Part shown: piece after piece, positions 39,701-59,041 of the stretch
How positions within the stretch are numbered: position 1 is the first letter of the stretch
Layout of the letters: the number at the start of each line of letters is the position of its first letter
Source: Psammoneis japonica
Lineage: Eukaryota
Assembly: GCA_008632985.1 (NCBI GenBank)
Contig: QPGO01000154.1
Span: 62,001-126,000, forward strand
Reading direction: 5' to 3'
Length of the DNA stretch: 64,000 bases
Program-made: the position numbers and the translations under genes
The notes under the pieces: generated by a model
What the model was told of the DNA's origin: nothing
Database searches by the model: none
What the model saw: the letters and a program-made list of their open reading frames with translations, nothing else

Positions 39701-40747
39701 TAGTACACAATCCTACGTGAATTTTTCGTCCTACGGGGAATTAACACGAGCGGCTCAACATTGAACAAATTTGACGGACATTGAATCTTTTTTGCGTAGC
39801 CGTAGTACATAATCTACGTGAACTTTTCGTTCGACGAACATTGAGAATATTTGAGAGACATTGAATCTTTTTCACGTATCTCTAGTACATAATCCTACGT
39901 GAATTTTTCGTCCTACGGGGAATTAACACGAGCGGCTCAACATTGAACAAATTTGACGGAAATTGAATCTTTTTTGCGTAGCCGTAGTACATAATATACG
40001 TGAACTTTTCGTTCGACGAACATTGAGAATATTTGAGAGACATTGAATCTTTTTCACGTAGCTCCAGTACATAATCCTACGTGAATTTTTCGTCCTACGG
40101 GGAATTAACACGAGCGGCTCAACATTGAACAAATTTGACGGACATTGAATCTTTTTTGCGTAGCCGTAGTACATAATCTACGTGAACTTTTCGTTCGACG
40201 AACATTGAGAATATTTGAGAGACATTGAATCTTTTTCACGTATCTCTAGTACATAATCCTACGTGAATTTTTCGTCCTACGGGGAATTAACACGAGCGGC
40301 TCAACATTGAACAAATTTGACGGACATTGAATCTTTTTTGCGTAGCCGTAGTACATAATCTACGTGAACTTTTCGTTCGACGAACATTGAGAATATTTGA
40401 GAGACATTGAATCTTTTTCACGTATCTCTAGTACATAATCCTACGTGCATTTTTCGTCCTACGGGGAATTAACATGAGCGGCTCAACATTGACAAATTTC
40501 ACGGACATTGAATCTTTTTTGCGTAGCCGTTGTACATAATCCTACGTGAACTTTTCGTTCTGACGACGAAATACTGTACTACAGTAGAAATTCGGCGAAG
40601 ATCGGAGACCAATGAGAGACAGTGGTCTGCGCCTCCCCCGATTTCAAAACAGAAAAGACGCGTAGACATACAGACGTCCGTACAAAAAAGCGCGCCGCGC
40701 TTCACGCACAAAACTGGAAACCATGGCGTTTGAGTTCACCGACTCTT
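39400..40747. repeat. Array of 182-bp units (about 6.5; each an 80+102-bp dimer) plus end segment; largely unmutated copy
   Basis: Unit starts at 39411, 39597, 39781, 39963, 40145, 40327 and 40508, with near-identical right-hand units. Confidence 0.95.
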
Positions 40748-40764
40748 AGCTACCATAGCCTGAT

Positions 40765-40942
40765 TGTATTGAGGTTTTCTACTGTACAGAAAAACCGTGG
40801 CACCACCAGGATTTACCAGTGATTACTGTAAGCACAGTATTGAGGTTTTCTACAAAACACCTTTGGCACTATCCGTAGTCTCTCGCATCTCACTGTATTG
40901 AAGTTCTCTGCGGCCGTACAAAACACCTGTGGCACTACCAAG
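40765..40942. repeat. Three degenerate copies of gtattgaggttttctac..aaaac..tggcactacc
   Basis: Copies start near 40766, 40837 and 40895. Confidence 0.65.
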
Positions 40943-40959
40943 ACTTACCTACCAATACC

Positions 40960-42869
40960 ATGAATCCTTGCTCGCATTTGCCATCATCTATTTTCCTGGT
41001 GTTCTGGGTCGTAACAAAGTTTGCTCGGTGCACGGGAGAAGTCAACCTACCGCTCGGGGACGTGAACGTTTTGATCGTGACAGACACTCACGGATGGGTG
41101 GGAGGTCATGGCTTTCACGAACCAGAACTCAATGCGGATTATGGAGATGTCTTGTCCTTTTATGAACGATTGAAGCACATGTGCCACGAACGGGGGAAGA
41201 GCTTGTACTTTGTTATGAATGGTGACTTTGTCCATGGCACAGGACTGTCACGAAACCCACCGAGAGAGCTTGAACCTTTGCTTGAAAAAATGCCATGGGA
41301 TGCCGTTAACGTTGGAAACCATGAATTACAGGAAGACGAAACAGTGGAATTTATAATGAGACCAGCCGGATTTGTTGATTGGTTCGGTGATGCATATCTC
41401 ACATCTAATGGTGAGTCCGCGCGGTTTCCCGGCTGCTTCTGCTCTGGTTGCATCATTTTGAGTTTCTGACAAAGTTATTATGCCGCAGTTGTGCGAGCTG
41501 CATCGGGACGGCCTCTTGGACAAAGATATCGCTTGTTGCAAGGGCGGTTTCAAGAATCAACAATCCTTATTTTTGGGTTTCTTTTCAATCAAGAGGATGC
41601 TAGCCCCCTGGTCGAAGTCGAGCTCGTCGAAGACGTAGTGAAGTCGAATTGGTTTGTTTCTGCGCTGCGTGACAACTCATTTGACGCAATTGTTGTCATG
41701 GCGCACATGGATGTTCAAGACCCGCTTGTTTTTGTTATCTTGTCTGCGATTCGCAAAGTGTGTGGCAAAGGTATGTCCGAGATTCTGTCATTGGGCCGAG
41801 GTAGCAGAGTTGAAGTCTCATCATTGACCTTTCCTTTTCGACGAACGCCTGGAACGAAGACATGCCAGTTCAGTTCATCACTGGTCATACCCATTATAGA
41901 GCACACGCAATGCTGGATAACGCTAGTTGCTCCTTTGAGGCTGGAAGGTTCTTGGATACTGTCGGGTTTGTCTCTCTAAATTTAACCACAGGCGTCAACT
42001 CAACGGAGCGTTTTAACCACGTCTTTTTGGATGCCAACAAGGATATACTTCGAGATACATTGGGAGTCCCCACATTAGCCACTGAAGCTGGTACGGAGCT
42101 GTCAGAGTTCATTCGCGATACTCAGGAAGCACTTGGACTTCTGAATGTAGCTGGCTGTTCACCGAATCGCTTTTACGAGAACATAGCCATGAACGAGACG
42201 AACTCTCTCTGGGGTTTGTATTTCAATCAAGTCGTTCCAACTCAATTTTTCAAGGGCGACACGTCAAAGGTGTTGGTTCAGAGGGTGTCGTGGTTCTTTC
42301 GTTACGATTTGTGGGACGGAAGTGTGAGAGTTTCTGACATTGATGCGGTTGTCCCAGAGGACGAATCCCTTTATTTCATTGCAAAAGATGTCAAAGGCTC
42401 TATCATCAAGAAGCTGGTGAATACGCTGGCACGCGAAGAGGAATACAGAAACGGGACACTGCCTTCATTTTGGTATTCAGGAGTGGTAGAGGATGACGAC
42501 ACATACGAGTTGTACACGATCGGCAAGGACGTCCCTCGAGTCAAATATGCTTTGAGCGATATGGACGCGTCATCTGATCCACAAGAGCTCTACGAAGGAA
42601 ACACAACAGTGCGCACTCTTTGGGAGGGATTTGTGACCGAGTTCTGGCCATGCCACGGTAACAAGCACGTCCCTACATCATCAGGATCGGGCAACAAAAA
42701 CAGCGACGCCGGCGGCTCTGACGGTGCGTCAGCAATCACAAAGATAACCATCGTGACCATTTTAGCAGTAGCCATTGTATTTGTTGTTCGGAATGTACCG
42801 AGATGGCGCCGTCGTTATGACACTGAATTTATTCCTGAACCGGAGGGACATGTTGCCCTTGTAGTCTAA
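40960..42869 (+). CDS. Secreted/membrane-anchored 5'-nucleotidase-like metallophosphoesterase; introns 41411-41488 and 41771-41859
   Basis: Signal peptide, TDTHGW, NGDFVHGTG, VGNHEL, AHM, TGHTH and a C-terminal TM helix. Both introns keep frame. Confidence 0.88.
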
Positions 42870-44563
42870 CACGCCGGAAACGCAGGAACGTGAGCGTTAC
42901 GGCAATTAAGATTTAACTTTCTCTGTCATTTTAGACTACAGCATATGCCCGAGTCTCGCTTTCGGAGAATCCTCCAAGGAAAGGTTTTCCATAACGTTAC
43001 GTTAACGTAGCAAAATTGTTACGGACTCCGTAACGAAACGCAATGTTTGAGAACAATCAAGTTGGATCGGATTTGCCAATTTCTAATTTGTGATAACAAA
43101 AACTAGAGGCTACTCGACAACCAAAAACCAAAGAAAGAAAACAATAAGTGACTCGTCCTTGTGCTGGAGCCAACACAGATGAACGTGCACCAACGACTTG
43201 TCAGGAACGAGAAGTTCTTGGTTACATAAAACAAGAAGAGAGGTTGGGCTCCATTCTCGTTTTGAACTTTGGACCTCTCAAGTGGCATCGGTTGTTTGAT
43301 CTGTGATTGGTTGAGACGTTGATGGCGGTCTTTGTTTGTGGCGGTCTTTGTGACTCGTAGCTTGAGGCACAACACATGAATAATTTCAAACTCCCTCATG
43401 CCGAAAGGTCCGAGTTGTCACCACCCATGCGATTGCGCACGAATGCAGGCAAGTCGGGCATTTTACATGGTCAAGAGATCAGCCTGCCAAAGCTCAGTGC
43501 TGACAGCCTCAATCAATGGGTGCCCATTGGCAACTTCTGAGTGGAAGCAGTGGCAGACATTGTTGATGTGATGAGTTCTGGCCCTCATCTTGGGCACCCT
43601 GGCAGCTCAGCTGCCGAGTTGTCCTCGATCAATTTGCAGAAAATGGGTGGAGTCACAATTGCTGGGCAAGCTGTTTGTTGATTTCCTCCAACAAGCACGT
43701 GGATGCTTTCACATGCTGAGTGGCAGCTGACAAAGGCAAGTGCTCACTCTCACTGCTGCTGAGAACAAGCTGGGTCTGCAGCTTGGATGGCCAGTGGGTG
43801 GGAGCTTCTCTCCATGCTTGACAGCACAGCCACTGTGAGACTTTGCTGCTTCAGGATCTTCAGCCATGATTGTCTTGTTCCAATTGCCATGGAAACTGGC
43901 ACCAGACTGCTGAAAAACCATTTTCTTTGTCAGGTGGGACATGGGCACACTAGCCCTTGTCACGGGCATTCAACAGGAGCCAGCCAATGTGCTCGCCACA
44001 TGCAATGCCATGAGATTGCTTTGGGCTCTGGCGGTGGTGAGGCTGAGCCACTTCGTTGGTTGTGTGTGTGGTGTGTGTGGTGTCAGGCCAATTGGACTTC
44101 TCCAGGAAGCTCACTTTCCCCATCACCAACTGGCAGACAGCAGAGTCAAATCTGCACTTTGGGTGCTGTCACATCTGGACACTGGCCCCAGCAGATTAAC
44201 CCGCCACACTCCCATCCACCAGCATGCCAGTTGGCATGGCAGGATTGTCCACAGGACAATCTGTCCATTTTGTTTCCAGTCAAACAGGAAATTGGCCAGA
44301 GATGCTTGTCTTTGCACAGCTGACTGTGTTGGAAGAGAAGAGAAGCCCCAAAACAATGGCCAAATTGTTGTCCAAAACAAGGCCAGAGCACAAGTCTAGT
44401 CACCGCATTTCCCACAAATCTGTTTGTGAGCTCCAAGATTCATGGAGGCAGCTTTTCCACTTGTGGACCTCACGTGTGTGGACTTGGTGCTTGGACTTCA
44501 TCAACTGCGTCACTGGCAAAATGGTTTCATCCTCTTGGGCACATCTGCTTTTTCACAAAGCTC

Positions 44564-45737
44564 TGACCCTGCATCTCCTTGATCATGGCTTTTTTAGCTG
44601 GGTGGCAACTGGCTGGATCACAGCTTTGTGCAGGTGCACGGCACAAGGGTTGGCAAATGCTTTCATGGGGTGCACAAGGACAGAGCAATTAAGCTCTGAC
44701 TCAACATCCTGTTCCTCTGAGTGCATGTCTTGGTTCATTGTGTTAAACTTGACACCCCATGAGAGACAAGGCCAGCTTGCCATTGCAACTCTGACTCTGT
44801 CATGTGTCATGTCAGCTGAGCTGTGTGCCCAGACCTGGTTGTCCACACAGGTGGCAGTGGCTCTGGTTCTGGAGCACCTAAATCAGGTGTGGCAATTCAG
44901 GGGTTTCAGACACTCTTTTGCTCATTGCATCTGTTGCAACTCCCTTGTTTGGGATTTGGGGTTGTTTCCTCTGGAATGAGTGCTTGCCAAGGGACATCAG
45001 CTCTTTTGGCCTGGTGAGGAGAGACATTCATTTGTCACATCTTGATCTGCATCTTCTGCTCAATCTTTTCATCAGGTCATGGCTGCACTTTCAAGTCTTG
45101 GAGGTGACATGTCTCTTGCCAGTGGGACTCAACTGCACACTGCTGGGTGCTGAGCATCTTGAACAAGTTGTCAAATCTCAAATGATGCTGAGGTGTGTGA
45201 GACCACACCCTTTGTGAAGTTCAACACAAGAGTGGTGGAATGAGAGTGTTGTGGTGATGACAATCCAAGATGCAGACCAACTCAAGAGCATGAGCCCCAC
45301 TTTGGAACAGGCTTGCTCAACTGCAGCTTGTTGTTGAGAAGAAAGTGCCAAATTTTGGGTTTTGTGGGTGCTCTCATGAAAAGCTAAATTGGAGATGAAT
45401 TTTGCCCAGTTGCAGGGATGCAGTTGTGCACAGCATTTGCATGTTGGATGACACAAGGCTGTGCTGGGAGACCTCTGCCACTGCCTTTGGCCATCAATGC
45501 TCCTTGGCATGAATGAGTTGAGGTTGTGCTGAACATTGCAAATCACAATTTTTTTTGGTGGCACCACTCTGGAAATGAGAGTTGACTTCAAAAAATGAAA
45601 TCACCTGACTCACATCTTTGATCACAGATGGATGTGTGCTGTGAGCAAAATGGCCATTGTTGAATGACAGCAGCACATGTGCTTGCTCCCAGAAAACAAA
45701 AATGAGACTCAAAAGCATGTTTTGGCTGCAACAGTCT
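44564..45737 (+). repeat. Dispersed repeat of about 1.15 kb, copy A
   Basis: Collinear matches with 53021-54130: ctgcatctccttgatcatggc, cttgatctgcatcttctgctcaatcttttcat, gtgacatgtctcttgccagtggg, aatgagactcaaaa. Confidence 0.85.
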
Positions 45738-48700
45738 CAGCTCCAGTGCAAGGGTTGTTTGCAGGCAGACAAAAGAGAAACTGCTGTGATGATTGATCAT
45801 TGTGGTTGCATGGCAACATCCTTTTTGTTGCTGCACAATCTTTCAATTGACCACCAACAATGCCTGGGGTTGTTGCACCCAGCTGATTGACTGATGCACA
45901 CAGCCCAGACTTTGCACCCATGAACATTTTGCACTGTGTTGTGTTGCTTTTGACTTTCCAAGGTGCTTTTGTCACTTTTGCAAATCAACAGGCAGCACAT
46001 TGAGAAACATGACACTCAGCAAGTTGTCAAGGCAGACTCCATTTCAAGCCACAGCCTGGATTGGAGAGAGTGAAAGATGACTGAGTTGATGGCGCCAAAG
46101 TGAAAATTCATGCAAAGAGCCCGCTGGAGCAATTGGCTCATCATCTTAAAAAGCTGGAGCTTTGTCAGAATCATTCATTGAGAGGTTAAAACAAACAGCA
46201 CTGTTGCTGGACAAAGGAGCCAACTTGTTGGTGGCAACAGTTGCATCGCAGCTCACAGGAGTGGCATGGCCACAGATGGGGACTTTGTCAGCAGGAACAG
46301 CAAAATGATGTGAACAATGCTTGGCATGTCCTGATGGCCTGATGGGTGGAGAAGCATGTGCAGAAGCAACAGCAACATCAGGGTGCCATTGTTTTGGGTG
46401 AAGAGAGAGGTTGCCTGGAAAGCACAATTTTTTTGTGTTGACAAAAGCTGGAGGTTTGGCACAGTGCTTGAAGGGGCTTAAAAGATGGGGAAGAGTGAAA
46501 GACACTGATGTTGCTGGCCAACCATGTGAGTTTCTGACCCACCTGTTCAAGTGTCATGCTCTTGTTCATTTTCACAGAACAAGTCCCTTTGTGGGGGGTG
46601 GTTCACTCTTGCAGCTTGAGAGTTTGAGTCAGGTGTTGCAGAGACAGGCAGGAGCCACATTGGCAGCAGGTCGAGGATGCAGTGGATGCCAAGAATGCAA
46701 AGTGAGGTTTCTCTCCATGATCCTCTTTTGTGTGTTTCAATGAACAGCTCCTTTGCATGAGGCTGGAGTGCTGCCCAACATGAACTGCATGCTCACATTG
46801 ACCTTGGCTGGTGACAAAAGGAGTTTAGACTTTGAGCTTGTGAAACAACAAGAAGCATGCTGGTCATCAATGCCAGCAGGAAATGAGTCAGTGTCGAAGC
46901 TGTCATCATTGCAGGTGTGACATGGTGGTGTCCATTGGCAGCAGGGAAGCATCCAACAACATGCTCACAGGCAATGTGGGCACAGACTGCCATGTGCATG
47001 ATGCGTGCACCATGTGTGCAATGAACACAGTGACTGTGACACAGGTGGAGTGAGGCTTGCATCAATTTTGATGCCGCTTGACATGGGGCTTGAGGCCAGT
47101 GTCAAAGCAGAGTGGGGGTCGGGCCAAGTCAGCAGACAAGGAGGACAAGAGATCACATGCACTGCAAACCAAGTTGGCTGCAATGGGAGTTGCTTTTGTC
47201 AACAGCAATTCCAGAATCTCATCAGAGCAAGCCAGAATTGCAAGTGGCGCAACAAGCAGAGTGCAGCACAGATCAAATCCAAACCTGCCCACCACTTTTG
47301 TTCATGGCTGGGCTCATCAGACACATCCTTGATGCCTGGGTTGGCGATGAAAGTGACCAGTGCATTGGAGGTTGGCCAAGAGAAAGTGTCTTGGGAGCAG
47401 CTCTGCTTGGCTCTCCACTTGGCATGGCAACCCTTGTTGAAGTGTTTGCCCCAACAGCCATGGAACTTGAAAATTTTCCACCTCTTCTTGTTCCTTTTGG
47501 GCCCTGACACAGCAGCAAAGAAGGGCAAAATGTGTCCAGCACAGAGCACAGCCTGCCTTGCACACATGTGCTTTGCTGTTGGTGAAGCCCACCATCAGTG
47601 CATTGCATGCCAGTGGCCTCATGCTCCTGGCCAATTGCACATTGACTTGAGCCAAATCCACCATTGCCAAAGGTGAAATTGGTCACTTTGTGATGTGCTC
47701 ATTGGATCCATGCTTGTCCATCAGCAGCAGAATTGCTTTGTGACACCTGTGCATTTGCTCAATGCATGCAAGTGTTTTGCCAAAGATGGTGTGCTTGCTT
47801 GAAAAGATGATTGGGCACCTTTTTCTTCATCATCACAACCGCCGCTGAATCCTTGCCTTCTTGCCTGTGCCACACCCATCAAGCTGCCCGCTGACAGCCT
47901 TCAAGGAACACTCCATTTGATGGAGACAGCCTTGGGAAGAAAAAAATGAAAATGTGGTGATCGCAGTTGTTGTGTTGAACAGGGAGGTTGTGTGTGAGGG
48001 TGGGGCATCATTGTGTTGTTGGCAAGTGACCATTGCGCTCAACAAACACAGAGACACTTGCAAGTCATGGCTCATGATCAAGACGGCATTGAAACAACAA
48101 GGATCAGGTGAGCCAGAGAGCAGTGGTCATTGCAGCAGAGTGTTTGCTTGGACAGTGGCTGACAACAGCCGCGGCAGGTTTTGTGTTGTCAGCAGCTGCA
48201 GACTTGGATCAGTCAGATTCAATGAGCTTCAAACACAGAAAAGAAGAAATTGTTGCATTGAAATGCAGCCACAAAATGTTCAACCAGCTTGTTTGTTGTT
48301 TGTTGCAGCAGATCCCACTCACATGCAAGAGCCCGGGGCAACGCTTGTCTTTCTCTGCGGGGGTGTTGTCAGGCTGGATCATTTTTGTTCCAAAACATCA
48401 CAGTTGGGAAAACCACAGAGTCCAACAATCAAACAAGTGGAAACAGTGTGATGCACTCATTTGCTGTGAAAGAAATGTCACTCTGTCACAACTCACAACA
48501 CTGTGAAAGAGACCTGTTGGGGCACACAACCAAGGACAGATCGTCTCAAGTGGAAAGGTGTCTGCTTTTCGCAATTTCGTAATTTTTTGAAAAACCGTGT
48601 TCGCCAGAAAAAATTGAAAATTTCAAATTTCAGCTTTGAAGTTGTCCCTCCGACAAGGCGGGTGCGGCGATGGTGGCGGCGATGATGGATGATGCGATGG

Positions 48701-48961
48701 CGACATCGCAGCAGAAGCACACCAAGCTTGCAATTCATTCACTGCTGTTGTTTCACAGTCTGGCCTGTGAATTTTCTTTTCACTGCCGGTGTTGCTGCGT
48801 TGTTGCGCTCCACAAACTCCGCAACAGCATTCTTGCCGATTGGGAGATGAATGAACGCCCATGCGCTGTCATCTGAGGGAGCCTCCTCCTCAAGTGCAAG
48901 GAACCATGCTGTCAGATTGCCTCGTGGCGGTGCATTCTTTCACTCGGACAGCAAACTCAAG

Positions 48962-50075
48962 ATGGCGCGCACTGCGTTGGACGAGGCATCACAAGACGGC
49001 GCGTTCAAGAGACGGGAGGCGTCTTGGCAGAACTGGATCAGCAGAGGTGAGTGTGCGTCTGTGCAGAGGTCACTGTGACTCTCTAGAAAAAACTTCTTGC
49101 TTTTCTCTTTTGTGCTGCAACCCAATCATGACAGAAAAAGGAGCTCGATTCCCTCCAGAAAAGAATCACTGTCATTTGTGTGTTGCCTGTGCATGCCCGT
49201 GGGCTCATCAGACTTTGCTGATGCAGGCTCTAAAGGGGCTGGAAGACAGCATTTCCATCACTGTGGTGCACCCTGTTTGGTGCAAGACAAGGCCCGACGA
49301 CGAAAGTGATGAACACCATGGGTGGGTGTTTGGCAATCCTGACGGAGAAGAGTTTCACAACACCATTGGTTTGGGTGGGCCTTTCCCCGAGGCTCTTCCG
49401 GGCAACAACCCAGATCCTTTTTTTAGCTCCTTCAGTGTGAGAGATTTGCATGAAGAAGCCAAGGACACAGATGGCAAGTGCACGGTCCCCATCCTGTGGG
49501 ATGCCAAGCTGGGTGCCATTGTCAGCAACAAATCCTCGGAAATCATGCAAGTGCTCAACTCGGAATTCAAAGATTTTGCAAAGAATCCAGATGTTGACTT
49601 CTACCCTGAGGAGTTGCAGACGGCAATTGACAGTGTCAATGACTGGATCTGTCTGACTGTCAACAATGGCGTTTGCTGTTGCGGCTTTGCAACTTCGCAG
49701 CAGGCTTGCGACAAGGCAATTGAGCAGTTGACGGATTCATTTGATCGAATTGACTCCATCCTTCAGAAGCAACGATTCATTGCAGGTGACAAAATGATGG
49801 AAGCCGACATTCATTTGTTTGTGACGTTGCTTCGATTTGATGAAGTTTGCATTGTTTGCTTTAAAGCCAACACCCGCAGCGTTGCCTTGACTCCGGCAAT
49901 TGTCAACTGCATGCAAGAGATCCACCAGACACCAGGAGTTGCGGACACAGTCAACATGGATCAAATCAAGATGCACTGTGTCGCCTCTCATCCAGATTTA
50001 AACTGCTGGTCAATTGTTCCTCGTGGACCTGACTCATCAAGTTGCTTCAGAAGCCACACAATCGATCGGAGGTGA
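48962..50075 (+). pseudogene. Glutathionyl-hydroquinone reductase (GST Xi/omega-like, YqjG/ECM4 family) inactivated by hypermutation; intron 49047-49134
   Basis: CPWAH, LKGLE, TVPILWD, NNGV..CGFA, LLRFD and SHP motifs. Conserved Tyr appear as Cys/His and conserved Arg as Gln/His/Cys. Apparent 1-nt frameshift after GPD. Confidence 0.9.
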
Positions 50076-53020
50076 GCCAAGAAATTGAACACAGCCCAGC
50101 AGCAAGCAAAAGAGTTTGTCAAACTTTCATGCAAGTGGCATTGCCCGAAATGAGTGCATGATGCAGTTTCAATGGCGACAAAGATTTGTCTCGTTTGCAT
50201 TTGTAAGTTGTTGCTGTTGTGGAATGTCTTGAACCGTGGCCGATGACATGTCATCCTGATCGGATTGCCCACAACCATTGGACAGCTTTTCAAGTTAAAA
50301 GTCAACTGATGGAGCACACAAAAGATTCTTGGAAGCACTCGTTGACCAATGTCGGTCACCAAGACACTGTGAAGCACTAAAAAGTCAAGAAAGAATGTTT
50401 GCATGAAGGAAGATAGATCGCATCAAACATGAGTTGAAACCAACATGCCACGCGCACATGCCACAAAGTCAGCTCTCTAGTCTAAATGACGAATGGCAGA
50501 TTTGATGTTGAGTGGGATTGCCCCATGCATTTCTTTTTTCTGTTCTAAATTGCTTGGCACTTGTCTTAATTTTTACTTGCAACAATCGAGAGTGAATTCT
50601 GTGATTCGGTGAGTTGGTCATGACCAACTGGACAGCTCCAGTTGGTTCCCTCACCACAGTGAATCAAGGCATCACAGATGCCTCCTCATGTTGCAAAGTG
50701 GAATTCTTCCCTTGATTGCTTCCCAACAATGATGCGGATTGTGCCTGACGATGATGAGCCTGGACCCTTTCCTTGCGCTTGGCGGCTTGCACTTCCTGAT
50801 GCATGTGGAGAAAAAACGGAACATCTTCGGCCAGTCGATGACGACGGAGCTTCTTCTGAGCAGCGGGCTTTTCGTTTGTGCCAAAGCGACGGGCATTGAT
50901 GAGATTTTTACGTGCCAATGCTTGTGTCTTTCGGCGATCGAAGGGAGAGTCATGTTCCTTGTCCTTCGAACGTTTGCTCTTGTGGACTTTGCGGATGGTG
51001 CGTTTGCAAGTGGTCATGGCGGTTTTGGCACTTTCGTTTCACGAGAAGAGTCTTCAACGTCATCAGAATGGCTGGCAGTGCTCGATCGCTTTCTCTTTCC
51101 ATTGTTCGACTGCTCGATGGGAAACTGGATTAGAAACATCTTGGATGGCTTGGTCTCAAGGACTCGGACAGTCGCGACGCACGTCTCGTCAACGCTCGAA
51201 ATTTGAATGGCTTGCTTCAACGCGATGAAGACGGCAAAGGCAAAGAGCTCATGTTCGATGGGGAACAGAACAGCACCGTCAACGATGGCAAAGAGCGCCA
51301 TGGTGAAAAGAAGAAGAGAGGTCTGCATGATGATTGACAGCAGCAAGATGCAAGTCAATGCTTGATCAGGTGGTCAAGTTTGGAATTGTGAGAGGATCAG
51401 CGTGATTGCTGTTTCGAAGGCTTGCCCGGACAGGATTGCCTCAACATGCCAGGTGTTGCATGGCTTCTACGGGAAGTTGTCATCTGTCGAAGTGCGTCAT
51501 CAGCAAAAGCAGGCTGGCAGGTTTTGTTCACAAAATGCGACAGCACCAACTTCACACCATGCTGTGCACTGATTTGTGTGCAGAGCTCACAAACACTCAT
51601 CAAACTTTACAAACACGAATTAAAATGATCATTGTGTGTGTGTGTGGCAGTGATGCAAAGAATGTGCATGAAACAAAAGTTGTGGGGATTGGGCGGAAGC
51701 TCTTTTGCGATGTTGATCACGCGCACGCGCTTGCGTGCTTGCGCATGCAGCGTCATGTGGCGCTGGCCACTCTGGCTAGACAGCTGCAGCAGCAGCTCTC
51801 TAGCTAGAGCAGAGCAGTTGAACACGTTCATTTTTGCGTTGCTCGTTTGCTTGGCTTGATTGGCGCTGGCCCACAAAATGAATGAAGCAGTCAACAAGAC
51901 ATGCAGCGCTTTTTTGTGGGTCAATGAGTGCGACTGGAAAAAGATGAGATGCCAAAATCAGGCAGAGAAGAGGAGCAAAGCACAGCTCTGCACCCCCACC
52001 TCCTTTTCTCTGAGAAACAAAAGTTTTTTGTGCACCATCTCAAGTCTGGCTGTCTCACCTCCTTGGTGCAGTCAACAAATGATGGAATCACTTGAAAGAA
52101 GTCACTTTTCAATGGCCAGACAGCCTGCTTTTTGAGCATGCGTTGTGGGCAGAAGAGCGGCCACACAGGGGTGCAGAGTGGCATGCAAAATGCACACACA
52201 AAACACAAAGAGTGCAGCACAGTGGACAGAACCAGCATCATGAAGTCTGTGGCTCATGACACAAGTTTTGAAAAGTGCAGGTTGGCAGTTTGTGTGGCAA
52301 TGGCAGAAGCCTGGGTGCTGGCCACAGCTTCAAAATCAAATCCTCCACCCAGCATGATTCAGAGACAAGTTCACAGGGTGTCCAAATGTGCAGCTCTTGT
52401 GAGCAAGTGGAGGGCACAACACTGTTTTTGTTTTCCATTGGCTCTCATCAGCTCTCAGAAGTCAGGGGCAATGTTTTGAACCTGGCTTGCATTGCTGTTG
52501 ATTTTTTGTTGAACCCCATCTGTTGCTTCTTCTGTTTTTCATTGGCGCGCCAATTTGGACTCAAAGAATGATGTGTCTGTTGGCACTGCACATGTTGCTG
52601 TGAGTCACTGGGAAAGTGCATCATGCAGCACTCTTCAAGGATTGCTTGCAGCTTCATGTTTGTCTCAGTCTTCAGGTCAGTTGTGTGATGCTGCAACAGC
52701 ATGTTTTGCTTTGGAGCCAGTTTGATTTGCAGAGCAAGTCTCAATCTCCCTCTTGACCACAGAGAGGTGTCAATCATTCTGCACCTGACTCTCCATTCTC
52801 TGCTCTCAGCACCTGCTCTTTTTGCTGCTTGGATGGGTGCCAATGGCTCAGATCATGGGTCGCCAGCACCAGTTTGTGACACTGGACATTGCTGCCTCCT
52901 TTTTGGGGGGTGCTGAGCACACTGCGCAATTGAGGCTGCAGGCTTTTTGAAGCCAGGTCAAGCAAAGGTTGGGCACACCCACTTTCCTTCTTGCAAAGCT
53001 CCCAGTGGTCTCATGCAGAG

Positions 53021-54130
53021 TGATCCTGCATCTCCTTGATCATGGCTTCTTTGAAATGGGTGGCACTTTGCAGCTTTGTGCAGGTGCACAGCACTGGGAT
53101 TGGCCAGCGCTTTTGTGGAATGTGCAGCAATGAGGCCATCATGCTGACTCTGACTCAAGGTCCTGTTCTGAGCACATGTTTTGGCCCGGTGCATTAAATT
53201 CAACCCCTCAAGAGACTGTGTTGGCTTGTCTTGCAATCTCCAATTTCTGTCATGCACTGTGCTGGCTGAACTGTGCGTGGCCATCTGCACAGGTGGCAGC
53301 GGCTCCAGCTCAGGAGCACCAAACTCAGGTGGCAGCCCAGGGTTTCAGACTCTCCCTCACTCCTTGCAGCAATTGCATCTCCCTCTCATTTGGTGTTTTT
53401 TCCTCTGAAGAATGAGTGCTTGCTGAGGGACATCAGCTCTCTTGTTGCTGAGGAGTGAGATTGGCTCACAAGGTCTTGATCTGCATCTTCTGCTCAATCT
53501 TTTCATTGAGTTGTGGTTGCACTTTTGAGTCTCAAAAGTGACATGTCTCTTGCCAGTGGGGCTCAACCAGGCAGGACCTGAGCATCTTGAACAAATTGAC
53601 AAATCCCAGATCATGCTGAGGTGCAAGACCATGCCCGTCATTGAGTTCAGTGCAAGAGCAACAGAGTGCAAATGCCATGGTGATGGTCCACCAAGGTGCA
53701 GACCAACTGAAGAGCATGAACCCCACTTTGGCACAGACTTGCTTGATTGCAGCTTGTTGTCAAGAACACAGATTGGACATGCAAATGGATGAAAGGGCCA
53801 AATTTTAGTTTTTTGGGTGCATTCATGTGAAGTGCTCAATTGGAGGTGTGTCTTGCCCAGTTGCAGGGGGATGCAGTTGTGCACAGCACTTGCGTGTTGG
53901 ATGGCACACGACCATGGGGTGACCACTGCCTTTGGCCATTGATGCTTGGCATGGGTGAGTTGAGTTTGTGCTGACCACAACAGGGGGGAAGCTGATTTGC
54001 ACCTGTCTTTGCAGATGGATGTGCTTGAAGTGAGCAAAATGGCTGTCATTGGCATGACAGCAGCAAGTCCAAGTGCTTGCTCCTAGAAAACAAGAATGAG
54101 ACTCAAAACCACACTTGGTTGCAACAGTCT
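53021..54130 (+). repeat. Dispersed repeat of about 1.1 kb, copy B
   Basis: Diverged direct copy of 44564-45737. Confidence 0.85.
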
Positions 54131-56199
54131 TGACCCCAACAAGGGAGAAACATGGGCTCAGTGGACCAACTGTGTGTGCCAGCAGAAGATTGACTTTTTT
54201 GTGACTCTGTGGAGTTTCTCATTTTGAATGACTGAGTGCAAGAAAGCTTTTAAGCAGAGCATTTCCTTTTGGTTGCAACAGAGCCAACAGTGGCACACAC
54301 ACAGAACATGTCAAAAATGACCTCTGCCAGGTTTCAACATGTGAGCCAATGTGATTTTTTCCATTGGCCCCTTCATGGAGACATGGCCGGAGAAGCCAAT
54401 GTTGCACAGTTGGTGCAACAAGAGACTGTTTGAGTGCAACAATTAAAAAATTTGATGAGGGTCAATCCTCTGAACCAAAGAGCTTGCACACACAGGAGGT
54501 CCACCAGCAGGCAGCTTTGATGAGGGCTGCCTGGACACACTCACAAGTGCCCCGGCCGGGGTGCTCAGAGGCACTGCAAAAAAACACAAGGGAAGTGCGG
54601 GAGAATTGCAAAACCATGAGCTGTCAAAAAAATGCCTCTGCTCACTGATCCATCCTCACCTGCCTGCCTGTGGTGAACAACCAAAAATCAAAAAATGGAC
54701 AAAACGGACTCACTTTCTCCCTCTGCCACCAAATTGAATCTTGCTCATGACCAACCACCTTGCACTGCACTGCATCAACCAGCAACCAGGCATCCACATG
54801 CCGGTGCATGCAGTCCACTGCAGATGCCATCTCCATCTCAGCACTGATGCAAGATGCGAGTGCACTTTCTTCTTTCTTCTTGACTGCAACAAACCTCTCA
54901 AGAGCAAAGTGCACCATGAAGACACCACCCACCCACCTCCGTTCAGCAGTCACTGGCGGTGGTCCTGGAGGCATTTTCTTTTGCCGTGCTCTGGCAACAT
55001 GCCAACCAAGAGCTGCAAGCAGAGAGAGGTTCAAAAGCACAAGCTTTGCTGCAGTTTGCAACTTGCTTGGAGCATGTTGCTGCAGTTGGAGGAGTTTGGA
55101 GAAGTCAACGAACCTTCACCAAAAATGACAAGGAAGATTCTGGCAAGGAAAATGACAGCAACAACAACAACAATGATGATCTTGGCAACAAGTCATGTCA
55201 GCTGAGACTGGTCAAAACCACAAACATGTCTTGTGGGTTGGCGGCAGATGTCCCGCCAAAGACTTCACTCATGGGCATCAAGTGCAAAGCAAAATGAGTC
55301 TGTGTTGGCAGAAGCTCCAACAACAATGTCATCACGTGGACAAGCAGCTGGCCTCAAGACAAGGTGGAGCCAAACAACCACCTGCTGCCTTGGCAGAAGA
55401 TGGCAAAGTCATTCAATTTGCCAAGGCCAATCATGTCTTTTGGACAAGCACAAAATGTGATGCGAGATTGCATCCAAGGTTTGTGACATTGACACCACAA
55501 TCTTTTGCATGGGGTGTGCTCCCAACTTGGACATGTTGGACAAAAAATTGCGCAAGCCACACGCTGAGCAACAAGCTGGTGCAGGAGGCATGTTGGTGCT
55601 CTCTAGACTCACTCTACAAACAAGACTTGGGGAAGTGTCACACAGGTTCACAAACAGTCAATTTCTCCAAAACGTTTGTCACACTGCACCAACAAATCGG
55701 TGACAGGCACATTCTTTCCCACACAACAACAATCTGCGGGCAGCAGCATGGTTGTTGCTGCTGCTCAGGCTTGCCAAATGCAAAAAAAACATTCTTTTTC
55801 TTTCTCACGTGTGTGATGCAACCCAAGAAACAATGCTGCCACCAACAGAATGCACCATCTGTCAAAAACCCTTTTCCCATCTTGCTTTTGCTTTGTGCGC
55901 GGGTTGCTCTTCCACCGCTTCAGCCCCATCACACCCGCTCACCTTGTGAACAAAGCACAGGGCTGCACAACCATGTGATGCAATTGGGTTGTTGCAAGCT
56001 TGCCAGCTCAAGCTTTTTTTGATTTGTGGAGCCATGGAGGCAAGCCAGCAAGCTCAGATCCCCCTTCTCGTTTCATGCTGGACCCCCCCAAAAGCTCAAA
56101 ATCTCCCCAAGCCATCCAGCGCGCACTTTCCAAATGATTGGCACAAATGGTGGCTTGACTCTTGATCTTGTCATGGCAGGAAAACTTGTCCTTTGCATT

Positions 56200-56840
56200 G
56201 ACAAGCATGGGTGATGTCTTGGCAGCTCTGGCCTCGTCAACAATCTTTCTGTTTCAGCCTCGCACTCGAGCAGATCCTTGAGCAAACTGGGCCAGCAGTG
56301 CTGAGCCATTTCGCCATTGCCACGAATCTTCATTTTTGTTCAATCACAACTGGAGTCACCCCTTTGCAACCCAGTGTGGCAACAAAATCATCATTTTTGC
56401 AAACGAGTGTTTGAAGCAACTCACAAGCGCGTTTGAAGACATCCTTGTCAAACTGCTCACTTTTCACAACCTTCAGGACCGTGCCAACAAGAGAAGGGTG
56501 CTTTTGCAGACAACATTTTTGGCATGGGAATTGCAGAGTGAAATGTGGTTGAGCATGTGCACAGTGCATTGTCGTTTCTTTTGTCGACTGAGGGAGTTGT
56601 CAACGCCTGTCAGCGAAAGGCCGCGCCCATGCGCACCAACAACTTCGCTGCAGCAATGCAAGCATGGATCATCAATGGCACCCTCATCCATGAGCAAAGT
56701 GGCAAGATCTTTTGCAGCTTTGGAAATGGCCTCAAAGCCATCTCTCCATGCACAAAGCCTCGCACAAGAGCTTGGATGAACCCGATGCTCTCGAATCTTT
56801 TTGCATCTCTGATGCTTTGCATTTTCGATCACTGGCAGTG
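56200..56840 (-). pseudogene. Degraded helical (ARM-like) protein gene fragment
   Basis: Broken frames FEAISKAAKDLATLLMDEG / VGTVLKVVKSEQFDKDVFKRACELLQTLVCKNDDFVATLGCKGVTPVVIE look amphipathic-helical. Confidence 0.3.
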
Positions 56841-58299
56841 TTCATCTTCAATTCGGTGGTTTGGGGGTGGCGGTGGCTGCTTTGCACTGTGGCAGGTGAC
56901 AGCGATGCTGTGGAGCAACCAGCAACCCTACGATGACGACTTCTGCTTGTCTCATCCATCCGGCAACAACAATCTTCCGCTTTCACTTGGCTTCCATTTA
57001 CCGGCATTTTGATTTTTGTTTTTTGCTTTGCGTTGCTTGCTTCCTTTCAGCTTGTAGAATTATTTCTACGTACATTCTACCTACAGTACAAAGACACGTA
57101 CACGCCTACTGCACACTTTGCAATCTAATAGTCGCGCACGTACAATCAATATCCAGACCGGCGCCTATTATAGGCGCTGGCTGGCTCAAGGGCTGGCTCG
57201 CTCCCGCTCAGTGATGGGTGATGGAACCTGTTCGGTCTGGGTCTCTTTCCATGGCGTTGGTACTCTAGCTCTACTAGCATTGAAGCAAGCGTCTGGTGGT
57301 AACCTCCGTCAAGCACGATTGGGGTCTCCAAAGAACATGATGATATGGTTTCATTTGGCAGTCGCTCTGGAACGATTGGAGAAAGCTAAAGACAGAAGAC
57401 AGAATTGATGGACATGCTACGTCGCTGCGAAGCCGAGCACTTGCTTGGCTAGTCGATTCTTGGGGCTACATTCGTTGGCATACTCGCAAAATCCCCTCCA
57501 CAAGAACAATCTGTACTACGGTGGTTCACGTGATAAGCTGCAAATTGCGCTCGACGCTGCTGAACCTCTCGTCAAGCAGAGCGGGTGGCTGTATGAATTT
57601 GCGTGGCGCCTTCTAATGCAGATGACCCCAACCTTTCCGCGGAAGTGCGGATTAAATCTGACGAGTCGTCAAAAGAACGACCCTGTGAACGTTTGCTTTT
57701 GCTCCCTTTCTTCTCACGAAGGCATTGACTGACTTTTTCAAACGCGTCCTCGTGAGACACCACCGTCCAAACATGTTGCCTCTCATTCTTTTCTCATGAA
57801 TCTTCCTGGAGGAGAGAGACCTTGAATCTCGAAATCAACAAAGAGTACAAGCTTCCTTTCAATCTAGACGACTCACGTCCAATCGTCGTTTTGTTCATGC
57901 CGCGAGTCAAGAGAGTTCGGATGAAATCATGGGCAGCAGTCATCGCCATAATAACGACCTGGACGGAGTTTGTCGCCATCTCGAATTGCCAAATCCTATC
58001 GAATGCAATGTATGAAAAATAATGGGGTGACCACTGCCAATACCAATTCTACTACTCAGAAACAACAATAGTATGGCTCGTATCAAGAGGATGACTTGTT
58101 AACGTCGTCTACAAACGACGATGACGGTACGCTAACATGTGTTGGACAAGTGGTTGCTGGTAGTCGTGCTCCCAAGACTTTCAATCATGATGATTCTTGT
58201 GCAGCCAATAATGATGCCAAACAGAGTTGGTTGAATCAAGGTGGTGGCGGTGATCAACACCGTAATTCCGCGTCACTGTTGCCGCATCAAAACAGTGTC

Positions 58300-59041
58300 G
58301 TGTTGCGCATGGATTATGAAAGCGATGGCAATGACTGCAATAAGAGGGGTGGTGGTGGTGTAGCAACCAAGCAGAATAACGATCCGCCCCTCCACCCGAC
58401 TCGGTCATTGAGCCTTCTTGTCGCACTGTCGGAGGAAGACGATCGTACCTTTGATTACGGATCACTCCTCGAAGAGAGTACACACGGGTGCTTTGATACG
58501 CAACAAGGAGAGGCACAACGCAAACCAAGGAGGGAATGGATCAACAAGCCAGTGTTGGCTTTGATCAAGAAGCATCATCGCCACTCATTAACAAAGATGA
58601 TGTTAAGTTTTAAAAGAATGCCGCCGGTCAAGCCAAGGCGGGTGTCGGAGTGGTGGCGGCCGGTGCCGTGGGAGGGTTGCTCTTGGGGCCTGTCGGTGTA
58701 TTGGTGTGGGTGCCATGCAGATTCCAGAAGAACAGCGAGCCAATGTAAAAGAAAAGGCGACAAACGCCGTCTATTCAGCAACGGACAAACTCTCGACGAG
58801 CTGTGGCACGGCGTGTATACAGTCTGGTATCGTGGATCAACTACCTCCCAAAATGACGCAGTGTTACACTGGAACGGTCGCAGAAGAAGGTACAGTCGTC
58901 ACCACAATGATAGAGCCGGATAATGCGCAAGACGCGGCCAGCAAGGGAGCGTCCGAAGTAGCAGCAGCAGCAGCAGCAGCAAACGATACCAGCATGGAGA
59001 AGAGCGGTGTCGATGCTTTAACAGCACCATGCGAGGGTTGA
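58300..59041 (+). pseudogene. Frameshifted gene fragment with a glycine-zipper-like segment
   Basis: An alternative frame gives GVGVVAAGAVGGLLLGPVGVL, continuing after a shift into GAMQIPEEQRANVKEKATNAV. Confidence 0.3.

What the first reader, a model, noticed from the sequence alone, without database searches (positions are those of the whole stretch)
48962..50075. Glutathionyl-hydroquinone reductase copy with Tyr systematically recoded to Cys/His
Family-conserved motifs read here as HCHLCVACACPWAHQ (family RYHLYV.xACPWAHR), GKCTVP (GKYTVP), WICLTVNNGVCCCGFA (WIY..INNGVYR.GFA), QACD (.AYD), FDEVCIVCFK (FD.VY..YFK), EIHQ (.IYQ) and HCVASHP (HYY.SH). Only one Tyr remains in about 300 residues (DFYPE). 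Tyr codons are TAY, so TAY to TGY gives Cys and the opposite-strand hit (RTA to RCA) gives His. The Arg to Gln/His/Cys changes fit added CpG decay. The intron is retained, so this is a DNA-level copy of a host gene rather than a retrocopy: the process also kills ordinary genes inside the domain, probably through missense load with the frame mostly left open.
Basis: partly seen in the sequence, partly recalled or inferred. Interest (0 to 1): 0.85.

Follow-up and report, generated by a model that had tools for sequence, protein, structure and literature searches.

The report
Host gene copy killed by TA-erasing mutation
A spare copy of an ordinary diatom enzyme gene lies in a block of DNA where almost every T-A step has become T-G or C-A, so nearly all its tyrosines now read as cysteine or histidine.

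Summary
Window 48962-50075 (+) is a two-exon Xi-class glutathione transferase / glutathionyl-hydroquinone reductase (GHR) gene. At the 11 columns where at least 88% of 26 diatom homologues have Tyr, it reads Cys (9) or His (2). Six of 11 conserved Arg read Gln, His or Cys. None of 154 homologues shares the pattern.

The gene lies in a 13.5 kb block (43464-56929) with TA observed/expected (o/e) 0.02-0.14. Neighbouring DNA has 0.58-0.60.

Contigs of a run from the same sample reproduce the window at normal depth. They also show a roughly 91% identical second copy that still has TAT and CGT at 2 codons where the window has TGT, and T|ATC where it has T|GTC. One contig of that copy lacks the 88-nt intron.

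I read the window gene as a dead, intron-bearing copy of a host gene, mutated in place by TpA-to-TpG/CpA hypermutation plus CpG decay. Surviving TA sites show a T-A-pyrimidine preference. That makes Tyr codons ideal coding-strand targets and explains Cys outnumbering His.

This signature has been reported experimentally only in Bigelowiella natans (Mettrop et al., bioRxiv 2026). This scan had already noted the process on many other pieces of this genome. The new points here are a host-gene victim and an apparently spared second copy. The enzyme and the targeting rule are inferred.

The parts
43464..56929 (.). TA-erased block holding the gene copy. It has 44 TA in 13,466 nt, and TG and CA o/e of 1.5-2.0. 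Its edges are sharp.
   Evidence: TA o/e is 0.02-0.14 inside and 0.58-0.60 in the three TA-normal stretches. The 500-nt bin 56501-57000 has 2 TA and the next bin has 27.
48682..50158 (+). Segment homologous to a second GHR gene of the same sample (about 91% identical). This is the extent of the duplicated host DNA as far as contigs align.
   Evidence: X2 contig 8 lies on 48682-49044 plus 49133-49629 (43 differences in the last 497 nt). X2 contig 9 lies on 49605-50158 (48 differences, 4 gaps). X1 contig 2 lies on 48682-49017. TA o/e 0.06, CG o/e 0.59, TG 150 against CA 146.
48962..49046 (+). It encodes the family's N-terminal ARTALDE..WxNWIS stretch. An in-frame ATG at 48851 could start a longer presequence.
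   Evidence: alignment A1; tblastn of homologues onto 48950-49057.
49047..49134 (+). Retained 88-nt intron with GT..AG ends. It has 1 TA left.
   Evidence: sequence. X2 contig 8 joins 49044 to 49133 with no letters between, which is the same 88-nt skip allowing for the repeated AG. One search gives the composition.
49135..50033 (+). Exon 2, the GHR core up to the frameshift. The CPWA motif is kept. Conserved Tyr are all Cys or His, and 6 Arg are lost.
49602..49604 (+). The only surviving Tyr codon (TAC, Y157), in context cTAc.
50034..50034 (+). Approximate site of a 1-nt loss. The conserved C-terminus continues one frame over.
   Evidence: 8 of 12 residues identical to a homologue's C-terminus in frame 50033-50158. 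No own-locus read contig was listed here, so an assembly error is not excluded.
50033..50161 (+). Shifted frame carrying the family C-terminus. It then runs on for about 30 codons to TGA at 50159-50161. No TAA or TAG is left where homologues stop.
50500..51500 (.). High-copy repeat just downstream of the gene copy. It is TA-poor, but CpG o/e is still 0.76-0.99.
   Evidence: summed contig depth 600-1100 against about 72 for flanking single-copy DNA..
44564..45737 (+). Left member of a diverged 1.2 kb direct repeat pair flanking the gene copy.
53021..54130 (+). Right member of the direct repeat pair, with start-to-start spacing of about 8.4 kb.
   Evidence: Identity is 80% over 1061 ungapped columns, with 138 transitions and 71 transversions. 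At 30 sites one copy has CA and the other has TG.

Best explanation
This is a dead copy of a host gene for a Xi-class glutathione transferase (glutathionyl-hydroquinone reductase). The copy still carries its intron, so it exists as a DNA-level copy and not as a processed retrocopy.

It lies in a 13.5 kb repeat-bearing block in which a local mutation process has converted almost every TpA to TpG or CpA. These are A:T-to-G:C transitions on one strand or the other. Ordinary CpG-to-TpG/CpA decay runs alongside but more slowly.

The process works fastest on 5'-T-A-pyrimidine. Every Tyr codon (TAY) is therefore a prime target on the coding strand and becomes Cys (TGY). His (CAY) needs a hit on the other strand, which is favoured only when a purine precedes the codon. 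This explains 10 Cys against 2 His.

TA-to-TG/CA changes destroy TAA and TAG stops and create no new stop. The gene is therefore killed by missense load and its frame stays largely open.

Shown here:
- the pattern and its direction;
- the sequence-context rule;
- the block's extent;
- a less-changed second copy in the same sample.

Inferred:
- the chemistry is adenine deamination in DNA (A to hypoxanthine, read as G) by a TA-reading deaminase, as proposed for Bigelowiella natans;
- the process is aimed by place (silenced, repeat-rich chromatin) and not by sequence identity, because the second copy seems to have been spared.
For: Identity: PDB 4uss at E 2e-75, Pfam GST_N_2, GST_C_2 and GST_C, and the closest database proteins are diatom GHRs at 56-70% identity.

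Direction of change: 11 of 11 conserved Tyr read TGY or CAY and 6 of 11 conserved Arg read CAR, CAY or TGT, against 13 of 148 other conserved columns changed. In 154 homologues those columns remain Tyr or Arg.

Three further conserved-column changes sit at T|A or ATA in a TAY context: T128A (t|GCC), I138M (ATG then c), and V for I at 49659. At 49659 the second copy reads T|ATC.

Second copy: of the 4 coding-region differences printed, 49651 G>A gives TGT against TAT, 49659 G>A gives T|GTC against T|ATC, 49677 T>C gives TGT against CGT, and 49643 is a silent C/T difference.

Not an assembly artefact: X1 contigs at depth about 72 match the window with 3 differences over 47689-48775, 3 over 49030-49622, 0 over 50075-50492 and 0 over 51874-52500.

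Action in place across unlike DNA: TA o/e is 0.00-0.16 in the 5' flank, intron and exon 2, and 0.02-0.04 in the older flanks.

Context rule: 68 TA remain in 20,548 nt of TA-poor DNA, against 1773 in 43,452 nt outside. The survivors include TTAA 18, CTAG 11 and CTAA/TTAG 15. ATAT, GTAC and ATAC/GTAT have 0 survivors, against 111, 169 and 238 outside. Per 1000 trinucleotides, TAT is 0.10 against 10.28, TAC 0.41 against 12.62, TAA 1.44 against 9.13 and TAG 1.19 against 8.78. Of the 10 hit Tyr codons whose preceding base was printed and is a pyrimidine, 9 became Cys.

Relative speed: the gene segment keeps about 58% of its CpG (o/e 0.59 against about 1.0) but about 10% of its TA (0.06 against 0.59). 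Per site, TA loss is roughly 4 times faster.

Precedent: in mutation-accumulation lines of B. natans, 230 of 231 new mutations in two viral inserts were A>G or T>C, all at TpA. The authors propose an ADAT2-like deaminase (I read Results and Discussion of 10.64898/2026.01.13.699255).
Against: The second copy's sequence was seen at only 4 coding positions, because 420 further differences were not printed. So 'the second copy is spared' rests on 2 TA sites, 1 CG site and a divergence budget.

Run X2 is labelled 'DNA?'. That it holds transcripts is my inference, from the intron-less contig and from its lack of any contig at least 95% like the window. An intron-less genomic paralogue would look the same.

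I found no transposon protein domain in the block's flanks. None of the 154 ORFs scanned gave a match above Pfam's cut-off there. 'Repeat DNA' therefore rests on one direct repeat pair and on contig depth.

The context rule takes TA-normal DNA as a proxy for the block's unknown ancestral composition.

One of the two His outcomes (codon 264, preceded by c) goes against the simple context rule.

Several conserved-column changes are not of TA or CG type, for example K53R, M140V, L154V and L257V.

The frameshift lies where no own-locus read contig was listed.

No enzyme, chromatin or methylation data exist for this locus.
Confidence: 0.82

Rival explanations
1. Homology-triggered mutation in the manner of fungal RIP. 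The cell detects that the gene is duplicated and mutates it because it is a repeat. Its position among repeats is incidental.
For: The victim is one of at least two copies in the same sample. A diverged repeat pair and a high-copy repeat share the block. At 30 sites the two repeat copies carry CA against TG, so mutation followed duplication.
Against: RIP marks both copies. Here the second copy keeps TAT, T|ATC and CGT at the 3 informative sites printed, and it appears as an intron-less (probably spliced) contig. The roughly 8.7% divergence is about what one-sided loss of TA and CG would give. TA erasure runs unbroken across DNA of different ages and kinds and stops sharply at 43464 and 56929. 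In B. natans the main target is single-copy (passage read).
Confidence: 0.12
2. RNA-level A-to-I hyperediting by an ADAR-like enzyme on double-stranded RNA, fixed in the genome by reverse transcription of an unspliced transcript.
For: A-to-G change with a 5' U/T neighbour is the ADAR-type preference, as stated in the preprint's Discussion. The alignable segment 48682-50158 lies within what the transcript-like contigs cover.
Against: The intron is retained. Flanks outside the homologous segment, with much lower CpG and so probably older, are erased to the same or a greater degree. There is no strand bias, with TG 150 against CA 146. No poly-A tract follows 50158. Loss of about 90% of TA sites is far beyond what I recall for editing of a single RNA.
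Confidence: 0.04
3. Sequencing or assembly artefact. The DNA really has TA at these sites, but a base modification or polishing error makes it read as TG or CA.
For: The best DNA holder is probably the sample the window was assembled from, so it is not independent.
Against: k-mer contigs at ordinary depth (about 72) reproduce the TA-free sequence with 0-3 differences per piece. The same run yields the second copy with TA and CG intact. Known modified bases that I recall (6mA, 5hmU) are copied as A or T by polymerases. The two repeat copies differ by CA against TG at 30 sites, and the block also carries CpG decay, transversions and indels typical of real divergence.
Confidence: 0.03
4. A working, neofunctionalised paralogue in which Cys and His replaced Tyr under selection.
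For: The frame is open for 406 codons, the CPWA cysteine motif is intact, and similarity to GHRs is still strong.
Against: All 11 conserved Tyr and 6 conserved Arg are changed, and none of 154 relatives shares this. The intron and untranslated flank are as TA-free as the exons, so the cause is mutational and not selective. There is a frameshift before the conserved C-terminus. The long open frame is expected in any case, because TAA and TAG are almost absent from the block in all frames.
Confidence: 0.02

Closest known systems
TpA-restricted hypermutation of integrated giant-virus and virophage DNA in Bigelowiella natans (Mettrop et al., bioRxiv 10.64898/2026.01.13.699255; I read the abstract, Results and Discussion)
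   Same: The changes are exclusively of TpA-to-TpG/CpA type and are confined to particular regions. TA-depleted, CA+TG-enriched clusters occur elsewhere in that genome, including some coding sequences with host-like domains. Adenine deamination is the proposed chemistry.
   Different: That organism is a rhizarian alga, whereas the closest relatives of this gene are diatom proteins. There the main targets keep many TA (3.3% of dinucleotides), whereas here erasure is near saturation (TA o/e 0.02-0.14). Here the victim is an intron-bearing host gene with a less-changed second copy. The main text has no occurrence of 'trinucleotide' or 'downstream', and its supplements were not open to me. Rates were measured there but only inferred here.
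Repeat-induced point mutation (RIP) of Neurospora and other ascomycetes (details recalled; I saw only the abstract of PMC7296669 in a search listing)
   Same: It is regional, dinucleotide-specific transition hypermutation that inactivates repeats and duplicated genes.
   Different: RIP is C-to-T at CpA and makes TpA, so AT content rises and stop codons are created. Here TpA is destroyed, GC rises and stops are removed. RIP hits both copies of a duplication, whereas here one copy appears to be spared.
ADAR hyperediting of double-stranded RNA (as summarised in the preprint's Discussion; otherwise recalled)
   Same: It is A-to-G change with a preference for U/T before the edited A.
   Different: It acts on RNA. 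Here the change is in genomic DNA, on both strands equally, and across intron and intergenic DNA.
CpG decay of methylated DNA (established knowledge, recalled)
   Same: It accounts for the Arg-to-Gln/His/Cys, Thr-to-Met and Pro-to-Leu changes and for the low CpG o/e of the block.
   Different: It cannot produce the Tyr-to-Cys/His changes or the loss of TA. In the gene segment it has gone only about 40% of the way, while TA loss is about 90%.
Glutathionyl-hydroquinone reductases / Xi-class GSTs (PDB 4uss, 3r3e YqjG, 6gc9)
   Same: It has the same fold family and the CPWA active-site motif, with 56-70% identity to the diatom proteins compared.
   Different: The conserved Tyr and several Arg are replaced and the C-terminus is frameshifted, so it is a pseudogene.

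Membership tests
Xi-class GST / glutathionyl-hydroquinone reductase | GST N- and C-terminal domains with significant similarity to solved GHR structures | tested here: met
   (GST_N_2 E 3e-7, GST_C E 4e-5). (4uss E 2e-75, with 11 PDB sequences matched).
Xi-class GST / glutathionyl-hydroquinone reductase | Catalytic Cys in the C-P-W-A motif (motif role recalled) | tested here: met
   CPWA is present and aligned with the homologues' near-invariant C21-P22-W23-A24.
Xi-class GST / glutathionyl-hydroquinone reductase | Family-invariant Tyr residues (active-site role recalled, not tested) and an intact reading frame, as expected of a working member | tested here: not met
   All 11 of 11 conserved Tyr are replaced and there is a frameshift at about 50034. 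It is a derived pseudogene of the family, not a working member.
TpA-restricted hypermutation (B. natans type) | Changes are A:T-to-G:C at TpA, giving TpG or CpA | tested here: met
   (Tyr codons). (2 TA sites in the second copy). (TA o/e 0.06, TG and CA o/e about 1.6).
TpA-restricted hypermutation (B. natans type) | Confined to discrete genomic regions with sharp edges | tested here: met
   The blocks are 36508-39548, 43464-56929 and 59960 to the window end, with TA-normal DNA between them.
TpA-restricted hypermutation (B. natans type) | Mutation rate measured to be orders of magnitude above background | not testable with these tools
   This needs mutation-accumulation lines or pedigrees. Here I have only a relative estimate, about 4 times faster per site than CpG decay in the same DNA.
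TpA-restricted hypermutation (B. natans type) | Targets are foreign DNA (viral or transposon) | tested here: inconclusive
   The victim here is host DNA. Its flanks are repeated, but no transposon or viral domain was found in 154 ORFs.
RIP | C-to-T at CpA, producing an excess of TpA | tested here: not met
   TpA is nearly absent and CpA and TpG are in excess, which is the opposite direction.
RIP | Both copies of a duplication are mutated | tested here: inconclusive
   The second copy keeps TA and CG at the 3 informative sites printed, but the rest of its sequence was not shown.
ADAR-type RNA hyperediting | Acts on a double-stranded RNA intermediate | tested here: not met
   The intron is retained, non-homologous flanks are equally erased and no poly-A follows. 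This is indirect evidence only.

The most novel reading that the evidence does not exclude
The TA-erasing mutator is aimed by place and not by what the DNA is. Any sequence that lies in, or is engulfed by, a silenced repeat block is rewritten, while an identical copy elsewhere is left alone. That includes an ordinary intron-bearing host gene, and possibly a gene at its ancestral locus. This would be a position-dependent mutagenesis that kills genes by missense while keeping frames open. Its T-A-pyrimidine fingerprint could identify the enzyme.
Probability: 0.4. Interest if true: 0.8.

Novelty: new member of a known kind. Interest (0 to 1): 0.62.

Why it matters
The process was first reported in 2026 in an unrelated alga, where it is presented as a defence against viral DNA. 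Three points here bear on how it is aimed.

- An ordinary host gene with its intron can be a victim. So being foreign is not required.
- A second copy in the same sample seems to be spared. That argues against a RIP-like rule of mutating every copy, and for targeting by chromosomal place or silent state.
- The same DNA carries two clocks. CpG is about 40% lost and TA about 90% lost, so TA erasure is the faster process.

The locus also gives a clean protein-level read-out (Tyr to Cys or His, with no new stops). That read-out can be used to find other victims in diatom genomes and to flag mis-annotated 'cysteine-rich' genes.

Tried and rejected
- **Whole genome:** none is held for this window. 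I could not fetch the second copy or search for deaminase candidates.
- **Same-species paralogue in the protein collection:** the whole-protein search and a search with residues 1-165 alone gave best identities of 66-70%. The paralogue is not there. P0041 (70% identity) differs in ways that TA and CG changes do not explain.
- **Second GHR copy in the window:** tblastn with 4 homologues found only this one.
- **Sequencing runs:** three runs of one sample were listed and no RNA holder was listed. X2 and X3 held next to none of the window's own words. X2 gave no contig at least 95% like 47500-52500, and X3 gave none at all.
- **Printed differences:** The full substitution table could not be made.
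- **Transposon domains in the flanks:** I scanned 75 ORFs of at least 110 aa from 33-64 kb and 79 ORFs of 60-109 aa in the block. Nothing in the block scored above a Pfam cut-off. The weak hits (Cep3, Connexin, IF2_N, Perm-CXXC, DZR_2, and TNP-like_GBD at 38013-38438) look like chance. The long ORFs of the block read as Cys/His/Gln/Trp-rich noise, so I did not spend database searches on them.
- **Inverted repeats:** none was found around the gene.
- **TGN and CGN trinucleotide gains:** I tried them as a second test of the context rule. They were confounded by CpG decay and unknown ancestral composition, so I did not use them.
- **Literature:** four full-text searches returned no paper reporting TA-erasing mutation in diatoms, judged from titles and abstract starts. 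Only the B. natans preprint describes it.
- **Earlier scan notes:** searches by sequence, by place nearby, and by words for a host-gene copy gave nothing.
Full report
**What is there.** Window 48962-50075 on the + strand holds a two-exon gene. Exon 1 (48962-49046) encodes the N-terminal stretch that diatom homologues share. An 88-nt intron with GT and AG ends follows at 49047-49134. Exon 2 starts at 49135 and reads through to a TGA at 50073-50075. The 313-residue exon 2 product (P0001) matches poplar glutathionyl-hydroquinone reductase 4uss at E 2e-75 and ten other Xi-class GST structures. It also matches Pfam GST_N_2, GST_C_2 and GST_C. The closest proteins in the large collection are diatom GHRs at 56-70% identity, with named ones from Seminavis, Nitzschia, Skeletonema and others. 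The window holds no second copy.

**Check of the observation.** P0001 has a single Tyr, Y157 (TAC at 49602-49604).
- Against 26 diatom homologues, 14 columns have Tyr in the majority. The window reads Cys at 10, His at 2, Tyr at 1 and Val at 1.
- In the 11 columns where Tyr is held by at least 88%, it reads Cys 9 times and His twice, always as TGY or CAY.
- Over residues 1-300, among columns conserved at 80% or more, Tyr is changed in 11 of 11, Arg in 6 of 11 and everything else in 13 of 148. Fisher tests give p = 8.6e-11 for Tyr and p = 4e-4 for Arg.
- The lost Arg read CAC, CAG, CAG, TGT, CAT and CAA. The kept ones are CGA three times, CGC and AGA.
- T222M (ATG), P174L (CTG) and E133K (c|AAA) are also of CpG type. 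T128A (t|GCC) and I138M (ATG followed by c) are of TA type.
- In a wider alignment of 154 homologues the Tyr columns remain Tyr (154/154, 146/146 twice, 147/148, 149/151 and so on). Cys appears only once in 142 and once in 145.
- One correction: the frame is not wholly intact. After GPD, at about 50034, one base is missing. The family's C-terminus continues in the shifted frame 50033-50158, with 8 of 12 residues identical to a homologue's end. That frame then runs about 30 codons further to a TGA at 50159-50161.

**The surroundings.** The gene is not an isolated oddity. Per-kilobase dinucleotide counts show three TA-poor blocks: 36508-39548, 43464-56929 and 59960 to the window end.

| Stretch | TA o/e | CG o/e |
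|---|---|---|
| Three TA-normal stretches (1-36507, 39549-43463, 56930-59959) | 0.58-0.60 | 0.95-1.19 |
| Older left flank 43464-48681 | 0.04 | 0.14 |
| Segment homologous to the second copy, 48682-50158 | 0.06 | 0.59 |
| 50159-52000 | 0.14 | 0.76 |
| Older right flank 52001-56929 | 0.02 | 0.22 |

- TG and CA o/e are 1.5-2.0 inside the blocks.
- The block around the gene has 44 TA in 13,466 nt and sharp edges. The 500-nt bin 56501-57000 has 2 TA and the next bin has 27.
- Inside the gene segment, the 5' flank has 0 TA in 280 nt, the intron has 1 TA, and exon 2 has 5 TA in 941 nt. All are depleted alike, and TG (150) and CA (146) are balanced.
- The gene segment and the DNA to 52000 keep much more CpG than the older flanks, although TA is gone from all of them (table above).
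- I read this as a younger piece of DNA lying in an older, already decayed block. TA loss (about 90%) has outrun CpG loss (about 40%), roughly fourfold per site if both decay exponentially. That ratio is my inference.
- The block holds a diverged 1.2 kb direct repeat pair, 44564-45737 and 53021-54130, which brackets the gene at 8.4 kb spacing. The pair is 80% identical over 1061 ungapped columns, with 138 transitions and 71 transversions. At 30 sites one copy has CA and the other TG, as expected if an ancestral TA or CG was resolved independently in each copy after they separated.
- A stretch at about 50.5-51.5 kb is high-copy by contig depth, 600-1100 against about 72.
- I could not show that the flanks are transposons. 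None of the 154 ORFs scanned gave a credible Pfam match inside the block. TA-normal DNA nearby holds ordinary genes, with glycosyltransferase, NYN and metallophosphatase matches.

**Evidence from reads.** One run search and one read-laying run were allowed.
- Run X1 (contigs, same sample, probably the source of the assembly) covers all 30 bins of 47500-52500. Its contigs reproduce the window almost exactly, at depth about 72. They show 3 differences over 47689-48775, 3 over 49030-49622, none over 50075-50492 and none over 51874-52500.
- The TA-free sequence is therefore present in accurate read k-mers at single-copy depth. Two of those few differences, at 48221 and 48340, are CA in the window against CG in the contig. 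They look like allelic CpG decay.
- The same data hold a second GHR gene. X2 contig 8 (927 nt) lies on 48682-49044 and then directly on 49133-49629, with 43 differences in the last 497 nt. X2 contig 9 lies on 49605-50158, with 48 differences and 4 gaps. X1 contigs 2 and 5 are similar.
- Contig 8 joins the two exons with nothing between them, skipping exactly 88 nt. So it is either a spliced transcript or an intron-less gene.
- X2 is labelled 'DNA?'. It holds no contig at least 95% like any part of these 5 kb, although it comes from the same sample. I therefore think it is a transcript library, but that is inference.
- Of the four coding-region differences the tool printed, three are informative. 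At 49651 the window has TGT where the second copy has TAT (the Tyr-173 column). At 49659 the window has T|GTC where the second copy has T|ATC. At 49677 the window has TGT where the second copy has CGT (the Arg-182 column). The fourth, at 49643, is a silent C/T difference.

**Why tyrosine, and why mostly cysteine.** The TA sites that survive in the three TA-poor blocks are not a random sample.
- 68 TA remain in 20,548 nt of TA-poor DNA, against 1773 in 43,452 nt outside.
- Among the survivors, TTAA (18), CTAG (11) and CTAA/TTAG (15) make up 44.
- ATAT, GTAC and ATAC/GTAT have no survivors, against 111, 169 and 238 outside. ATAA/TTAT has one survivor, against 252.
- Per 1000 trinucleotides, counting both strands, TAT falls from 10.28 to 0.10 and TAC from 12.62 to 0.41. 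TAA falls only from 9.13 to 1.44, and TAG from 8.78 to 1.19.

The simplest reading is an A-to-G change that needs T before the A and is much faster with a pyrimidine after it. A Tyr codon is by definition TAY on the coding strand, so it is the ideal target and gives Cys. His needs a hit on the opposite strand, whose context is set by the base before the codon. Of the 10 hit Tyr codons whose preceding base was printed and is a pyrimidine, 9 became Cys. The two preceded by a purine gave one Cys and one His. The lone surviving Tyr sits in cTAc, and four of the five TA left in exon 2 are in pyrimidine-TA-purine contexts. I derived this rule from this window before looking it up. The scan's notes show it had already been seen on at least eight other pieces of this genome.

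**Why the frame stays open.** TA-to-TG/CA changes remove TAA and TAG (TAA becomes TGA, CAA or, after a second hit, TGG) and make no new stop. Only CpG decay of CGA can create one, and the three conserved CGA codons here are still intact. This follows directly from the genetic code. It fits the near absence of TAA and TAG in the block and the long junk ORFs in all frames. RIP, as I recall it, does the opposite and makes stops.

**Mechanism and rivals.** I conclude with high confidence that this is a pseudogene made in place by TpA-to-TpG/CpA hypermutation plus CpG decay.

The chemistry is not shown here. I adopt adenine deamination in DNA by a TA-reading deaminase from Mettrop et al. I read the Results and Discussion of 10.64898/2026.01.13.699255. 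They found that 230 of 231 new mutations in two viral inserts of Bigelowiella natans were A>G or T>C, all at TpA, and they propose an ADAT2-like enzyme.

On targeting, the apparent sparing of the second copy, the unbroken erasure across unlike DNA and the sharp edges favour aiming by place or silent chromatin. They speak against a RIP-like response to duplication. The B. natans target is also single-copy. This rests on few sites, so I give the RIP-like rival 0.12.

The other rivals are weaker:
- **RNA editing followed by retroposition.** This is unlikely given the retained intron, the equally erased non-homologous flanks, the strand balance and the lack of a poly-A tract.
- **Artefact.** This is unlikely given the X1 contigs and the normal-looking second copy in the same data.
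- **A working Cys-for-Tyr enzyme.** This is excluded for practical purposes by the TA-free intron and flank, the loss of conserved Arg, the frameshift and the absence of the pattern in 154 relatives.

**What remains open.**
- Which locus is ancestral. The window gene has the intron, so it could even be the original locus, with the intron-less form being the copy.
- Whether the segment's ends (48682, 50158) are true duplication borders or only where local alignments stop.
- Whether the 1-nt loss is real.
- Whether the window copy is transcribed.
- What marks the block.

**Novelty.** Four full-text searches returned no paper reporting this process in diatoms, judged from titles and abstract starts. 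The only description found is the 2026 B. natans preprint. Within this scan the process itself is not new. At least 16 earlier notes on other pieces of the same genome describe it, including Tyr-to-Cys/His in a copia polymerase. I therefore class this as a new member of a recently described kind. Its added value is the host-gene victim, the apparently spared second copy, the comparison of the two decay rates, and the codon-level explanation of the Cys-to-His ratio.

Noticed in passing
window 36508-39548 and 59960-64000: Two further TA-erased blocks (TA o/e 0.03-0.33 per kb) lie in the window, with CpG kept better than in the old flanks of the main block. The only protein hint is a sub-threshold TNP-like_GBD match at 38013-38438 (-), E 0.003.
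   Followed up: partly
window 56930-59959: A 3 kb island with normal TA and CpG content lies between two erased blocks. It holds an ORF at 58072-58920 (+, 283 aa) with no Pfam match. The edge at 56929 is sharp.
   Followed up: no
window 44564-45737 and 53021-54130: This is a diverged 1.2 kb direct repeat pair 8.4 kb apart that brackets the gene copy. It could be old LTRs or two copies of one element. No gag or pol domain was found between them. At 30 sites the two copies differ as CA against TG.
   Followed up: partly
window 50500-51500: A high-copy repeat family has summed contig depth 600-1100 against about 72 nearby. It is TA-poor but has CpG o/e 0.76-0.99, so it is perhaps a recent insertion. 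It has no Pfam match.
   Followed up: no
window 48221 and 48340: The window reads CA where the read-derived contig of the same locus reads CG. These look like allelic CpG-to-CpA differences, which would mean CpG decay is still segregating.
   Followed up: no
window 48871-48873: Contigs of the second copy carry 51 letters where the window has 3. An in-frame ATG lies at 48851.
   Followed up: no
window 49093-49491: A 4690-nt X1 contig matches only this part, at about 85% identity (60 differences in 399 nt). That is more diverged than the roughly 91% copy, so the organism probably has at least a third GHR-like gene.
   Followed up: no
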